Positions 275 through 2,017 of a DNA stretch of 5,007 nt are shown here, in pieces (positions within the stretch are counted from its first letter, which is position 1; every line of letters begins with the position of its first letter). The position numbers and the translations under genes were made by a program. Origin of the DNA: a virus; IMG/VR virus record IMGVR_UViG_3300045988_006078, positions 1-5,007 of that record; one strand, 5' to 3'. The notes beneath the pieces were generated by a model. The model had not been told where the DNA came from, did no database searches, and saw only the letters and a list, made by a program, of their open reading frames with translations.

Positions 275-1945
275 ATGTCATCAGTTAATCGTTCTACTCA
301 GCATCTGTTTTCTCAGATTCCTTCAACGCAAATTCCTCGATCTGTTTTTGACAGATCTCATGGATATAAGACGACTTTTAATTCTGGTTATCTTGTACCC
401 TTTTACGTTGACGAAGTACTTCCTGGCGATAGTTTTAAGCTGACTGCTACGCTCTTTGCTCGTTTGGCTACTCCAATTGTTCCGTTTATGGATAATCTTT
501 ATTTGGAGACTTTCTTCTTCTTTGTTCCCAATCGCCTCGTTTGGGATAATTGGCAGAAGTTCAATGGTGAGCAGAAGAATCCCGCTGACTCTACGGACTT
601 TTTGATTCCTACGGTTTCTGGTACGAATGTTCAGAATCAAACGCTTTGGGATTATTTCGGTCTTCCGACGAATGTTAATGAAGCTTTGAAAGTAAATGCG
701 CTTCCTTTCCGCGCTTACAATCTTATTTTCAATGAGTGGTTTAGAGACGAGAATCTTCAGGAATCTTTGAAAGTTCCGACTGGTGATGGTCCAGATAATC
801 TTTCTGACTATGGTCTTGTTCGTCGTGGCAAGCGTCACGACTATTTCACATCATGTCTGCCTTGGCCTCAAAAAGGGCCCGGCGTTGAAATTTCTATTGG
901 TGGTAGTGCTAATGTTACTGGGTCAATATCTTCTTGGCCAGGTGAAATTTCTTATAATATGACGGCGACAAACGGAGCTACTGTTAAGCCTTCCACAGTT
1001 TCTTTGAAACTCTATCCAGAAACTTTTTCGGTTTCAACTGGTAATTCGACAGAAGCTTCTTTTGGTCAGTTTCATTTTTTATCTCCGGATTTTTCTGTTA
1101 AAACCTCTCGAGGTAATGTTGATGTTACTGCTACGCGCGGTGACCTTAGTGGTTTTGGCTTTTCTGGCAAAGCTGATCTTTCATCTGCTGTTCCAATTTC
1201 AATCAACGACCTCCGCCAAGCCTTCCAGGTCCAAAAGCTCTATGAACGCGATGCTCGCGGTGGTACGCGATATACAGAAATTCTTCGCTCTCACTTTGGT
1301 GTGATCTCGCCTGATGCACGTCTCCAGCGTCCTGAGTATCTCGGCGGTTCGTCTGCTCGTATTTCGATCAATCCTGTCCAGCAGACGTCTTCTACGAATG
1401 AGACGACGCCGCAAGGTAATTTGGCTGCTTACGGTGTAGTCTCAGATAGTTTCCATGGCTTCTCGAAGTCCTTTGTCGAGCATGGTTACGTCTTTGGCTT
1501 TGTGAATGTCCGTGCTGATTTGACGTATCAGCAGGGTCTTAATCGCATGTGGTCCCGTCAAGGTCGTTTTGACTTCTATTGGCCTGTGCTCGCCCATCTT
1601 GGCGAACAAGCTGTTCTCAACAAAGAGATCTACGCGCAAGGTACTGCTGACGACGATAAGGTTTTTGGTTATCAGGAACGTTATGCCGAGTATCGCTATT
1701 ACCCTGGACAGATCACTGGTAAGTTCCGTTCGACCGATCCGCAGCCCCTTGACAGTTGGCATCTTGCTCAGAAGTTTTCTTCGTTGCCGACTCTTTCGTC
1801 GCAATTCATTCAAGATACTCCGCCCGTGGAGCGTGTAATTGCTGTTCAGGATGAGCCGCAGTTCCTGTTTGACTCGTATATTCGTTTGAAGTGTGCTCGT
1901 CCGATGCCTGTGTATTCAGTGCCTGGCTTGGTTGATCACTTCTAA
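275..1945 (+). CDS. VP1: Major capsid protein VP1 (Microviridae F-type capsid protein)
   Basis: This is a 556-aa ORF. The blocks IPRSVFDRSHGYKTTFNSGYLVPFYVDEVLPGDSF near the N-terminus and INDLRQAFQVQKLYERDARGGTRYTEILRSHFGV mid-protein are hallmark conserved regions of gokushovirus VP1 (Pfam Phage_F expected). A long variable insertion lies between them. It is the largest gene, as expected for this family. Confidence 0.95.
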   Translation: MSSVNRSTQHLFSQIPSTQIPRSVFDRSHGYKTTFNSGYLVPFYVDEVLPGDSFKLTATLFARLATPIVPFMDNLYLETFFFFVPNRLVWDNWQKFNGEQKNPADSTDFLIPTVSGTNVQNQTLWDYFGLPTNVNEALKVNALPFRAYNLIFNEWFRDENLQESLKVPTGDGPDNLSDYGLVRRGKRHDYFTSCLPWPQKGPGVEISIGGSANVTGSISSWPGEISYNMTATNGATVKPSTVSLKLYPETFSVSTGNSTEASFGQFHFLSPDFSVKTSRGNVDVTATRGDLSGFGFSGKADLSSAVPISINDLRQAFQVQKLYERDARGGTRYTEILRSHFGVISPDARLQRPEYLGGSSARISINPVQQTSSTNETTPQGNLAAYGVVSDSFHGFSKSFVEHGYVFGFVNVRADLTYQQGLNRMWSRQGRFDFYWPVLAHLGEQAVLNKEIYAQGTADDDKVFGYQERYAEYRYYPGQITGKFRSTDPQPLDSWHLAQKFSSLPTLSSQFIQDTPPVERVIAVQDEPQFLFDSYIRLKCARPMPVYSVPGLVDHF

Positions 1946-1954
1946 GGAGTTGTT

Positions 1955-2017
1955 ATGGCTTTAGTTATTTGGCTTGCCGTTGTTGGTACGGTAGTTATTT
2001 TTGCTTTAGGACAGTGA
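1955..2017 (+). CDS. Hypothetical 20-aa hydrophobic membrane micropeptide (MALVIWLAVVGTVVIFALGQ)
   Basis: It is not in the ORF track because it is too short. A consensus AAGGAG at 1944-1949 lies 5 nt upstream of ATG 1955. The stop TGA at 2015-2017 is one base before the VP2 ATG at 2019. The peptide has no charged residues and is long enough for a single transmembrane helix. Confidence 0.5.
   Translation: MALVIWLAVVGTVVIFALGQ

What the first reader, a model, noticed from the sequence alone, without database searches (positions are those of the whole stretch)
1944..2017. Unannotated 20-codon transmembrane micro-ORF with the best RBS in the genome, wedged between VP1 and VP2
The 73-nt VP1-VP2 gap is almost entirely occupied by AAGGAG (1944-1949), a 5-nt spacer, and an ATG at 1955. 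The ORF encodes MALVIWLAVVGTVVIFALGQ and stops at TGA 2015-2017, one base before the VP2 ATG. The peptide has no charged residue and is about one transmembrane helix long. Its Shine-Dalgarno is closer to consensus than that of VP1 itself, which would be odd for a non-coding spacer. It is not part of the canonical gokushovirus gene set (VP1-5, VP8). To my knowledge gokushoviruses have no recognised homolog of the phiX174 lysis protein E and no established lysis gene. My hypothesis is a membrane-inserted effector, acting in lysis (amurin- or holin-like), in superinfection exclusion, or as an assembly or membrane anchor. An alternative is that the AAGGAG merely loads ribosomes for re-initiation at VP2.
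Basis: partly seen in the sequence, partly recalled or inferred. Interest (0 to 1): 0.7.

Follow-up and report, generated by a model that had tools for sequence, protein, structure and literature searches.

The report
Conserved 20-codon membrane-peptide gene before VP2
A 20-codon gene that no annotation or gene caller has recorded, encoding a purely hydrophobic membrane-type peptide, is conserved in a clade of human-gut gokushoviruses; it sits behind what was originally the VP2 ribosome-binding site and is a testable, still unproven, candidate for the unknown way these phages damage or lyse their host.

Summary
VP1 stops at 1943-1945, AAGGAG lies at 1944-1949, and ATG 1955 opens 20 codons (MALVIWLAVVGTVVIFALGQ) ending at TGA 2015-2017, one base before the VP2 ATG.

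An open, hydrophobic frame on this T-rich strand is not surprising by chance. The conservation is. All but two of about 55 distinct junctions in the clade keep the ORF. Substitution events are 83 synonymous to 60 nonsynonymous (omega about 0.27, p = 5e-15). The other two frames give omega 1.1 and 6.7. The stop switches among TGA, TAA and TAG 11 times. No charged residue ever appears in positions 1-19.

It is therefore very probably a real gene. No known family matches it, and it is absent from a 15-billion-protein collection.

The strong Shine-Dalgarno is the ancestral VP2 site, because outgroups have VP1 stop, SD, then VP2 ATG directly. The ORF is a clade-specific insertion coupled to VP2, and two independent natural deletions show it is dispensable.

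Function is inferred. The same junction in other gokushoviruses holds putative wall hydrolases plus small membrane ORFs. I favour a lysis-related membrane effector at about 0.35, with an exclusion or VP2-helper role as rivals.

The parts
1943..1945 (+). VP1 stop codon (TAA), overlapping the first two bases of the SD
   Evidence: TAA in most relatives, TGA in one.
1944..1949 (+). Shine-Dalgarno AAGGAG. It now drives the micro-ORF and is historically the VP2 SD
   Evidence: Only AAGGAG on the + strand, duplex -8.6 kcal/mol. 24 upstream sequence variants in relatives keep a GGAG or GAGG core 4-7 nt from the ATG; one is weakened to AAGGAT. Outgroups have the same motif directly before the VP2 ATG.
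1955..2017 (+). 20-codon gene for a hydrophobic, uncharged peptide MALVIWLAVVGTVVIFALGQ (stop TGA 2015-2017)
   Evidence: Present in all but two of about 55 distinct clade junctions. 83 synonymous and 60 nonsynonymous events, omega 0.27, p = 5e-15. Other frames give omega 1.09 and 6.65. 11 stop-codon switches. Invariant M1 W6 L7 A8 V10 F16 A17 L18 G19. Residues 1-19 have mean Kyte-Doolittle 2.58.
2005..2011 (+). TTTAGGA inside codons 17-19: probable weak SD (AGGA, 7 nt before the ATG) for VP2, constrained at nucleotide level
   Evidence: Duplex -3.9 kcal/mol. GCTTTAGG is invariant in all downstream variants. No synonymous events in codons 17-18, whereas codons 8, 11 and 12 have 13-17 each.
2015..2021 (+). 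Termination-reinitiation junction TGA-T-ATG between the micro-ORF and VP2
   Evidence: The distance from stop to the VP2 ATG is 1 or 2 nt in nearly all relatives, 5 in one. The relative frame therefore varies, which excludes a frameshift fusion.
2019..2618 (+). VP2 (DNA pilot or minor capsid protein, 199 aa), the downstream coupled gene
   Evidence: Annotated as VP2 or DNA pilot protein in relatives. Its N-terminal 120 residues diverge to about 50% identity across the clade while the peptide stays at 70% or more.

Best explanation
Positions 1955-2017 are a real, translated gene specific to one clade of human-gut gokushoviruses.

Shown by comparison:
- Its amino-acid sequence, ribosome-binding site and stop are maintained by selection.
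- It lies between the SD that serves VP2 directly in related phages and VP2 itself.
- Its stop is 1-2 nt from the VP2 ATG.
- It can be lost.

Inferred mechanism:
- Ribosomes load at AAGGAG on the late VP1-VP2 message and make the 20-residue peptide.
- They terminate at TGA and re-initiate at the VP2 ATG, helped by the weak AGGA inside codons 18-19.
- At least one peptide is therefore made for each VP2, and the peptide dose tracks late-gene expression.
- The peptide has 19 apolar or small residues, no charge and a Trp near the N-terminus, so it partitions into the cytoplasmic membrane as a single helix.

Most likely role, inferred only: an accessory membrane effector of egress. It would either collapse membrane integrity or potential once enough has accumulated (holin-like, or like the 19-residue Ibs toxins), or bind a membrane enzyme of the envelope pathway (like the single-helix lysis protein LysM). 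It would tune lysis rather than be the only means of it.
For: Coding:
- The ORF is intact in six GenBank relatives and in all but two of about 55 distinct clade junctions.
- Variable columns at codon positions 1/2/3 are 10/4/13 of 19, and pN/pS is 0.32 against 0.73 and 2.43 in the other frames.
- Tree-aware counts give 83 synonymous and 60 nonsynonymous events, omega 0.27, p = 5e-15, with 11 stop switches.
- Replacements are almost all I/V/L/F, G/S/A, or at residue 20.
- An independent genome set gives 0.25.

Not a structured element:
- The RNA fold z-score is 0.28 and there is no Rfam match.
- The internal hairpin is fully kept in only 3 of 49 unique sequences.

SD and coupling.

Host or lipid target rather than VP2: the peptide stays nearly constant while VP2 diverges to 50%.

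Lysis-slot analogy:
- Seven other gokushovirus genomes carry, at this junction, a LAS-fold zinc peptidase (AF2 pLDDT 94; Foldseek to Hedgehog-N and VldE, TM 0.65-0.73) or a DUF5675 protein, which a preprint calls a C82-like candidate lysin.
- Each is followed by a 29-43 aa hydrophobic ORF ending 0-10 nt before VP2.
- A 38-aa TM ORF sits at the same place in prophages of a Veillonella-binned chromosome.

No rival candidate: no conserved overlapping-frame TM ORF exists in the clade.

Precedent for activity at this size: IbsC and IbsA, both 19 aa, and LysM, 37 aa.
Against: - There is no direct evidence of translation, membrane insertion or toxicity.
- Hydrophobicity is close to the default for ORFs on this T-rich strand.
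- Synonymous divergence (0.22) is lower than in VP1 (0.36-0.48), so part of the conservation is at nucleotide level, at least at the VP2 SD.
- The clade has no wall hydrolase partner, and the peptide lacks the charged C-terminal tail typical of holins.
- Two independent deletions in otherwise intact genomes show it is not needed for propagation.
- Most gokushoviruses lack anything at this junction, so their lysis must work in another way.
- Very strong, capsid-level expression would be unusual for a lysis protein that acts catalytically.
- The positional analogy is guilt by association, and the small ORFs compared are not homologous to this one.
Confidence: 0.35

Rival explanations
1. The peptide is a modulator of a host membrane protein, or a superinfection-exclusion factor. 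It would insert into the membrane and block the entry route or an envelope protein used by incoming related phages, or retune host physiology, without killing the cell.
For: - It is dispensable and clade-specific, as accessory competition genes usually are.
- It is more conserved than VP2, which suggests a conserved host target.
- The analogous 38-aa TM ORF occurs in integrated prophages beside lexA and is present or absent among near-identical prophages. That fits a competition gene.
- IbsA, 19 aa, acts by binding specific membrane proteins.
- Gokushovirus carriage is known to give superinfection immunity (PMC7062461).
Against: - It lies in the late structural block, coupled to VP2, with no promoter of its own detected nearby. 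It would therefore be made late, when exclusion is of least use.
- No sign of lysogeny was found for this clade. The bacterial-genome scan found no relative above 70% VP1 identity.
- No PADLOC or other family match.
Confidence: 0.2
2. The peptide is a helper for VP2 expression or localisation. The ORF would exist mainly to set the VP2 translation rate by termination-reinitiation. The hydrophobic nascent peptide would take the ribosome and message to the membrane where VP2, which has a hydrophobic N-terminus, is needed, or would act as a small assembly cofactor or virion component.
For: - The SD is the ancestral VP2 SD, and VP2 has only a weak SD of its own.
- The stop-to-start distance of 1-2 nt is maintained.
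- In the deletion variants VP2 falls back directly under the strong SD.
- Every small junction ORF in other lineages also ends 0-10 nt before VP2.
- A second clade-specific mini-gene (2615-2713) is coupled to the VP2 stop, so VP2 is bracketed by coupled small ORFs.
- VP2-like proteins are reported to have N-terminal transmembrane domains (PMC3394797).
Against: - Coupling alone does not require a conserved amino-acid sequence, yet omega is 0.27 with many synonymous changes in codons 8-15.
- The peptide does not co-vary with the highly divergent VP2.
- Most gokushoviruses make VP2 without any such ORF.
- No similarity to the VP2 N-terminus was found.
Confidence: 0.2
3. The ORF is a translated but functionless upstream ORF, or a neutral insertion. 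Its apparent conservation would come from low divergence, T-rich composition and nucleotide-level constraint of the VP2 initiation region.
For: - Random ORFs here are often open and hydrophobic.
- Synonymous divergence is reduced relative to VP1.
- Codons 17-19 are constrained at nucleotide level.
- It has been lost twice without loss of other genes.
Against: - Nonsynonymous changes are strongly depleted only in the ORF's own frame (p = 5e-15; other frames omega 1.1 and 6.7).
- 13-17 synonymous events occur at each of codons 8, 11 and 12, with the residue kept.
- Among 18-20 peptide variants there is no frameshift, and the only premature stop removes just residue 20 (L083).
- The stop is maintained through three different codons.
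Confidence: 0.07
4. The stretch is a non-coding element: a transcription terminator or attenuator, or a structured RNA or DNA between VP1 and VP2 that lowers VP2 expression.
For: A terminator-like hairpin (7 pairs, then TTATTTTT) is found at 1974-1994.
Against: - The number of such hairpins in the window is not above shuffled expectation (9 against 6.0 +/- 2.7).
- Only 3 of 49 unique sequences keep all seven pairs, the central pair is usually mismatched, and there is no covariation.
- The fold z-score is 0.28 and there is no Rfam match.
- The variation follows codon periodicity.
Confidence: 0.02

Closest known systems
phiX174 protein E (the Microviridae 'amurin', single-gene lysis protein that inhibits MraY)
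   Same: A small membrane protein encoded by a microvirus with no muralytic enzyme. Its activity resides in one N-terminal transmembrane helix (MraY target: abstract of bioRxiv 10.1101/2023.10.16.562596).
   Different: E is 91 aa, is embedded out of frame inside gene D, and depends on a proline in its helix and on host SlyD (the last three points are from my own knowledge). The peptide here is 20 aa, has its own intergenic cistron and strong SD, has no proline, and matches no family. Gokushoviruses are stated to lack an E homologue (PMC7062461).
LysM / SglM of ssRNA phage M (37-residue single-helix protein that wedges into MurJ)
   Same: A very short, single-helix phage peptide that acts inside the membrane. 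It shows that one helix can suffice for lysis (PMC12506998, abstract).
   Different: LysM is almost twice as long and comes from an RNA phage, and there is no sequence relation. No target is known here, and lysis has not been shown.
Ibs type I toxins (IbsC and IbsA, 19 aa)
   Same: The same size class. Almost the whole peptide is one transmembrane helix with no signal sequence. They depolarise the membrane or bind F0 subunits a and b (PMC12648545; bioRxiv 10.1101/2025.05.26.656083).
   Different: Ibs toxins are chromosomal, repressed by antisense RNA, and bacteriostatic rather than lytic. There is no sequence relation. The peptide here is driven by a strong SD in a phage late operon.
Canonical holins and pinholins of tailed phages
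   Same: Small membrane proteins whose accumulation with late gene expression times lysis. They sit in a lysis-gene slot. Here the same junction holds putative hydrolases plus small TM ORFs in other gokushoviruses.
   Different: From my own knowledge, holins are usually 60 aa or more, with 1-4 TM domains and a charged C-terminal tail, and are paired with an endolysin. The peptide here is 20 aa with no charge and no endolysin in the genome.
The 29-43 aa 'NW(D/E)xI' ORFs found here next to a LAS peptidase or DUF5675 protein at the VP1-VP2 junction of other gokushoviruses
   Same: The same genomic slot, the same coupling to the VP2 start, a strong SD, and one hydrophobic stretch.
   Different: They have a polar NW(D/E) N-terminal motif and a basic (K/R)SP tail, are always next to an enzyme gene, and show no detectable similarity to the 20-aa peptide. 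Their own function is also untested.
Translationally coupled leader or upstream ORFs, and the tiny hydrophobic coat proteins pVII and pIX of filamentous ssDNA phages
   Same: Short ORFs whose stop abuts or overlaps the next start, so that the downstream gene depends on upstream translation. pVII and pIX are 32-33 aa hydrophobic peptides without signal sequences (from my own knowledge).
   Different: A pure coupling ORF needs no conserved peptide, yet here omega is 0.27. There is no evidence that the peptide is in virions.

Membership tests
phiX174 E-type amurin | Sequence homology to protein E | tested here: not met
   No Pfam, NCBIfam or PADLOC hit. The only PHROG hit is insignificant (E = 0.15) and to an unknown family. 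The literature states that gokushoviruses lack it.
phiX174 E-type amurin | Encoded in an alternative frame inside the scaffold gene | tested here: not met
   It is a separate intergenic cistron between VP1 and VP2.
phiX174 E-type amurin | Inhibition of MraY, with SlyD and proline dependence | not testable with these tools
   No variant of the peptide contains a proline. The biochemical test cannot be run here.
Holin | At least one transmembrane segment | tested here: met
   Residues 1-19 have mean Kyte-Doolittle 2.58 and no charged residue. This is a hydropathy criterion only; no dedicated TM predictor was available.
Holin | Charged, hydrophilic C-terminal tail | tested here: not met
   The peptide ends ...FALGQ. 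Residue 20 varies (Q, N, H, R, C) or is absent.
Holin | Adjacent or co-encoded endolysin | tested here: not met
   The window encodes VP1, VP2, VP4, VP5, VP3 and three other small ORFs, none enzyme-like.
Holin | Causes timed membrane permeabilisation | not testable with these tools
   Requires expression experiments.
Type I toxin of the Ibs kind | Hydrophobic peptide under 60 aa consisting almost entirely of one TM helix | tested here: met
   20 aa with GRAVY 2.28. IbsC is 19 aa.
Type I toxin of the Ibs kind | Overlapping antisense RNA antitoxin at a chromosomal locus | tested here: inconclusive
   The gene is in a phage late operon, and the simple scan found no promoter-like site on the minus strand at this locus. 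This weak test does not exclude an antisense RNA.
Pure translational-coupling upstream ORF | Stop within a few nucleotides of the downstream start, and a downstream gene with a weak SD of its own | tested here: met
   The distance is 1-2 nt in nearly all genomes. The VP2 SD is -3.9 kcal/mol against -8.6 for the ORF.
Pure translational-coupling upstream ORF | Peptide sequence itself not under selection | tested here: not met
   Omega is 0.27, p = 5e-15, specific to the ORF's frame, and 0.25 on a second genome set.
Canonical gokushovirus gene set (VP1-5, VP8) | Present across Gokushovirinae | tested here: not met
   It was found only in one clade (46 pattern matches, all clade members). 75 of 106 other junctions have a gap of 20 nt or less.

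The most novel reading that the evidence does not exclude
The 20-residue peptide is a lysis effector in its own right, and would be the smallest phage lysis protein known. More generally, the VP1-VP2 junction would be the place where gokushoviruses keep or acquire their lysis functions: bare membrane peptides of 20-38 aa in some lineages, and hydrolase plus small-TM cassettes in others. That would give the first experimental handle on how this abundant group of ssDNA phages leaves its host.
Probability: 0.25. Interest if true: 0.8.

Novelty: new variant of a known kind. Interest (0 to 1): 0.55.

Why it matters
Gokushoviruses are among the most abundant ssDNA phages in the human gut, yet no lysis gene is recognised for them (PMC7062461).

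This analysis turns a 73-nt "spacer" into a gene with a clear signature of selection. No pipeline calls it: it is absent from six GenBank annotations and from a collection of 15 billion predicted proteins.

The gene comes with natural knock-outs (two deletion genomes) and with a comparative pattern. The same junction recurrently hosts small membrane ORFs, with or without putative wall hydrolases.

If the peptide is membrane-toxic, it would be the shortest phage lysis or toxicity determinant known and a minimal scaffold for a membrane-active agent. If it is not, it is still a clean example of a mini-gene born behind an existing ribosome-binding site, and a warning that microvirus intergenic gaps are not empty.

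Tried and rejected
1. **Origin by tandem duplication of the VP2 5' end.** This was suggested by the TGATATGG repeat at both ends and the 64-nt unit, which would automatically create a 20-codon ORF. Alignment of the ORF with VP2 starts is no better than for shuffles (median p about 0.5 at nucleotide level, p = 0.13-0.84 at protein level). Not supported.

2. **Terminator or attenuator hairpin at 1974-1994.** Not conserved and shows no covariation.

3. **Structured RNA or a known RNA family.** Fold z-score 0.28 and no Rfam hit.

4. **Frameshift or readthrough fusion to VP2.** The relative frame varies because the stop-to-ATG distance is 1, 2 or 5 nt.

5. **Readthrough extension of VP1.** The ORF is in frame with VP1 in the window but out of frame in several relatives, with tandem stops TAATGA.

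6. **Homology search with the peptide in the large protein database.** An exact look-up shows the peptide is not in the collection. A literature search for the peptide string found nothing.

7. **Family searches.** Pfam, NCBIfam, PADLOC and PHROGs gave no significant hit.

8. **An overlapping-frame E-like lysis gene elsewhere in the genome.** All TM-like alternative-frame ORFs carry stops in many relatives.

9. **Conservation of L094's 38-aa ORF within IMG/VR.** Its closest relatives there lack it. It was later found in many integrated prophages.

10. **Hydrophobicity as evidence.** Shown to be weak by composition controls.

11. **A conserved or amphipathic helix face.** The hydrophobic moment is low (0.36). 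By my own inspection, not a tool result, the conserved positions show no clear sidedness.
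Full report
**1. What the window is**

The 5007-nt window is a complete gokushovirus genome. It encodes:
- VP1 at 275-1945 (Pfam Phage_F, E = 2e-193);
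- VP2 at 2019-2618;
- VP4/Rep at 3128-4045;
- VP5 at 4042-4332;
- VP3/scaffold ending at 4842.

Its nearest GenBank relatives are six human-associated gokushoviruses at 86-90% nucleotide identity.

**2.

- VP1 ends with TAA at 1943-1945, and AAGGAG is at 1944-1949.
- ATG 1955 opens 20 codons (MALVIWLAVVGTVVIFALGQ) that end with TGA at 2015-2017.
- The VP2 ATG is at 2019.
- AAGGAG occurs once on the + strand. Its pairing with the anti-SD is -8.6 kcal/mol, against about -3 to -4 for VP1, VP2, VP4 and VP5.
- Only a second small ORF at 2721 is comparable, at -8.5.
- None of the six GenBank records annotates anything in the 73-74 nt gap.

**3. Chance controls**

The coding strand is T-rich (33% T overall, 45% in the ORF).
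- About 39% of random 19-codon strings of this composition are open.
- About 4% are as hydrophobic as this peptide.
- An unrelated chance ORF at 3486-3545 has GRAVY 2.18 against 2.28 here.

An open hydrophobic frame is therefore weak evidence by itself.

**4. Comparative evidence for a gene**

I collected relatives through VP2, VP1 and a degenerate DNA pattern.
- Within the clade (whole VP1 80-92% identical; its C-terminal 120-150 residues 87-100%) there are about 55 distinct junctions. All but two have the ORF.
- There are 49 distinct nucleotide versions and 18-20 peptide versions.
- M1, W6, L7, A8, V10, F16, A17, L18 and G19 are invariant.
- Variable columns fall 10/4/13 (of 19 each) at codon positions 1/2/3.
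- Pooled pN/pS is 0.32 in the ORF frame, against 0.73 and 2.43 in the other two frames.
- On a neighbour-joining tree with Fitch reconstruction there are 83 synonymous and 60 nonsynonymous events (omega 0.27). The binomial p is 5e-15 against the neutral 73% nonsynonymous expectation. The other frames give omega 1.09 and 6.65.
- Codons 8, 11 and 12 each changed synonymously 13-17 times.
- Replacements are I/V/L/F swaps, G11 to S/A/C, or changes at residue 20 (Q/H/N/R/C). One genome has a stop at codon 20.
- No charged residue ever appears in positions 1-19.
- The stop switched among TGA, TAA and TAG 11 times at the same place.
- A second, independently assembled set of 52 genomes gives pN/pS 0.25.

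This is the signature of a translated gene whose product matters.

**5. Non-coding alternatives fail**

- The junction is no more structured than shuffles (z = 0.28).
- It matches no Rfam family.
- The one terminator-like hairpin (1974-1994) is fully kept in only 3 of 49 versions and shows no covariation.
- Fusion to VP2 by frameshift is excluded, because the stop-to-ATG spacing is 1, 2 or 5 nt.
- Readthrough from VP1 is excluded, because the ORF is out of frame with VP1 in several relatives.

**6. What the strong SD really is**

In gokushoviruses without the ORF, the VP1 stop is followed at once by a strong SD and the VP2 ATG. Examples are TAAGGAGGTTGCATTATG in a Muriventricola prophage and TAAGAGGTGATTAAATG in the Veillonella-type clade. 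Of 51 short-gap junctions, 25 have a 4-nt SD core there, and several read TTCTAAGGAG...ATG exactly as here.

So AAGGAG is the ancestral VP2 ribosome-binding site, and the 20-codon ORF is an insertion behind it.
- VP2 now keeps only a weak AGGA, which lies inside codons 18-19 of the ORF. This region is frozen at nucleotide level, which explains part of the reduced synonymous rate.
- The 1-2 nt stop-start spacing implies that VP2 is made largely by termination-reinitiation.
- Across relatives the SD varies (AAGGAG, AAGAGG, TGAGG, TGGAG, GAGGAGG) but keeps its core and spacing. It is therefore selected as an SD.

**7. The ORF is dispensable and clade-specific**

- Two genomes (L024/L054 and L087, from different samples) have a 10-nt gap in which the SD and start codon run straight into VP2 codon 2.
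- Their junctions derive from different parental types, TGA-T-ATG and TAA-TT-ATG.
- Each is nearer to ORF-bearing genomes (88.9% and 92.0%) than to the other (86.3%), and their other genes are intact.
- These are two independent clean deletions across the short TGAT(A/T)ATGG repeat.
- Outside the clade the peptide does not occur.
- Of 106 other junctions, 75 have a gap of 20 nt or less.

**8. A recurrent theme at this junction**

Several other lineages have put different small hydrophobic ORFs, with their own strong SDs, at the same place.

*(a) A 38-aa ORF in L094 (MDINFNNIVYGVILVASCSLVAGLSTIFCLWLADKVIK).*
- It is recorded on at least 61 contigs.
- In the eight places retrieved it lies in a gokushovirus prophage integrated beside lexA, on bacterial contigs of 37-921 kb.
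- L128, from a MAG named Veillonella, shares 3.3 kb of the chromosomal flank at 97.6% identity but lacks the ORF.
- The ORF is 100% identical in nucleotides in nine loci whose flanks differ by 4-7%.

*(b) A 25- or 37-aa ORF in L109.*

*(c) Hydrolase plus small-ORF pairs in seven genomes of several lineages.* The order is VP1, an enzyme-sized ORF, a 29-43 aa ORF, then VP2.
- The enzyme is a ~103-135 aa protein in five genomes. It has invariant H-x6-D and H-x-H motifs. The model is confident (pLDDT 94) and matches Hedgehog-N and the VldE endopeptidase domain, which is the LAS zinc-peptidase fold.
- In the other two genomes the enzyme is a DUF5675 protein. A 2026 preprint groups DUF5675 with C82-like peptidases as a candidate lysin.
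- The small ORFs share NW(D/E)xI, a hydrophobic stretch and a (K/R)SP basic tail, and end 0-10 nt before VP2.
- Two unrelated putative wall hydrolases paired with the same kind of small membrane ORF looks like an endolysin-holin cassette.
- Roux et al. had noted M15 peptidases next to unknown ORFs in some microviruses (PMC3394797).

This is positional analogy, not homology: the 20-aa peptide has neither the motif, nor the tail, nor an enzyme partner.

**9. Other context**

- No overlapping-frame TM ORF is conserved in the clade, so there is no better lysis candidate in the genome.
- VP2 is also followed by a clade-specific 32-aa amphipathic, +4 charged ORF (2615-2713). It has an ATGA overlap with the VP2 stop, pN/pS 0.13, and is retained in the deletion genomes.
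- The peptide stays nearly constant while the VP2 N-terminal region diverges to about 50%. This argues for a conserved host or lipid target rather than a specific fit to VP2.
- Relatives with chromosomal context lie in Firmicutes (a Veillonella-binned MAG, a Muriventricola isolate, and a 91-kb uncultured contig). SD-like motifs precede most genes. The host therefore probably uses SD-led initiation. The host of this particular clade is not known.

**10. Mechanism: shown and inferred**

Shown:
- selection on the peptide, the SD and the stop;
- insertion behind the VP2 SD;
- tight stop-start spacing;
- dispensability.

Inferred:
- translation from AAGGAG, with reinitiation at VP2;
- membrane insertion of the peptide, whose residues 1-19 average Kyte-Doolittle 2.58;
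- accumulation in step with late expression.

Most likely role, at about 0.35: an accessory egress or lysis-timing effector. It would act either by bulk membrane damage or depolarisation, as the 19-aa IbsC does (PMC12648545). Or it would bind a membrane enzyme, as the 19-aa IbsA does with F0 and the 37-aa LysM does with MurJ (PMC12506998).

Rivals:
- an exclusion factor or host-modulating factor (0.2);
- a VP2 expression or localisation helper (0.2);
- a functionless upstream ORF (0.07);
- a non-coding element (0.02).

**11. Comparison with known systems, and novelty**

- It is not a member of the E amurin family: no homology, different gene architecture, no proline.
- It fails two of the three testable holin criteria, lacking a charged tail and an endolysin.
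- It resembles Ibs-type toxins only in size and hydrophobicity.
- It meets the anatomical criteria of a coupling upstream ORF, but not the expectation that such a peptide is unconstrained.
- It is absent from annotation, from a collection of 15 billion proteins and from the searchable literature.

I rate it a new variant of a known kind (small phage membrane peptides) with moderate to good interest. It is a solid new gene and a testable lead into an open question, but it is clade-restricted and dispensable, and its function is unproven.

Noticed in passing
window 2615-2713 (+): A conserved, unannotated 32-aa ORF (MIDTILKFVNVLLNSGSAIWEAFKAIKKLFKK). It is an amphipathic helix (hydrophobic moment 1.48) with net charge +4, and its ATG overlaps the VP2 stop (ATGA). 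pN/pS is 0.13, against 0.98 and 2.17 in the other frames. It is found only in the same clade as the 20-aa ORF and is retained in the two deletion genomes. It may be a second membrane-active mini-protein bracketing VP2.
   Followed up: partly
window 2721-2843 (+): A 40-aa very basic ORF (MSRRRHKLSRKASKRIFRKGASRTKTLNARAVPMRGGFRI) with a strong SD (GAGGT, -8.5 kcal/mol). It matches phrog_10695 (E = 2e-12) and has pN/pS 0.07. It is widespread in gokushoviruses, with a conserved PMRGGFRI/L C-terminus. It is probably the J/VP8-like DNA-binding protein, yet it is not annotated in the six closest GenBank records.
   Followed up: partly
window 2919-3149 (+): A 76-aa ORF that overlaps the VP4 start by 22 nt. 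It is open in 48 of 52 clade genomes, and pN/pS is 0.17 for the part before VP4. It has no family match. Function unknown.
   Followed up: partly
window 4370-4392 and 4893-4913 (+): The two strongest terminator-like hairpins of the genome: 10 pairs plus TTTTTT just before VP3, and 7 pairs plus T8 after VP3. The first overlaps the TTG 4375 start listed for the VP3 ORF. The real VP3 start is more likely ATG 4411, which is preceded by TGGAG.
   Followed up: no
L118 4095-4406, L121 3067-3378, L223 1354-1680, L224 1959-2366, L225 1087-1413: A family of about 100-aa proteins with invariant H-x6-D and H-x-H motifs, encoded between VP1 and VP2 of several gokushovirus lineages and also on 20-66 kb contigs. 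The predicted fold (pLDDT 94) matches Hedgehog-N and VldE, i.e. a LAS zinc peptidase. It is a probable minimal endolysin, mostly unnamed in the databases.
   Followed up: partly
L118 4409-4498, L121 3381-3470, L223 1640-1771, L224 2329-2445, L225 1391-1507, L050 2789-2881, L051 2721-2819: A family of 29-43 aa ORFs with the motif NW(D/E)xI, one hydrophobic stretch and a (K/R)SP basic tail. Each lies directly after a LAS peptidase or a DUF5675 gene and ends 0-10 nt before VP2. It is a candidate holin-like partner with no family match.
   Followed up: partly
L215-L222 (gene at 6001-6117), L094 3865-3981, L128: A gokushovirus prophage integrated beside lexA in bacterial chromosomes (contigs up to 921 kb). 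The chromosomal flank is shared at 97.6% with a MAG named Veillonella. Its 38-aa TM ORF between VP1 and VP2 is 100% identical in nucleotides in nine loci whose flanks differ by 4-7%, and it is absent from the otherwise similar L128, L095 and L096. A 44-aa ORF with an amphipathic basic tail overlaps the VP2 end (L217 6796-6930), reminiscent of window ORF 2615-2713.
   Followed up: partly
window 2019-2618 compared with L002-L046: VP2 falls into sharply different types (N-terminal 120 residues only 50-66% identical) among genomes whose VP1 C-terminus is 92-100% identical. This suggests recombination with a breakpoint at or just after the micro-ORF.
   Followed up: no
L109 3055-3168 and 3062-3139: Another lineage (VP1 62% identical) has a 116-nt VP1-VP2 gap with two overlapping hydrophobic ORFs of 37 and 25 aa behind AGGAGG. 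I did not resolve which one is used.
   Followed up: no
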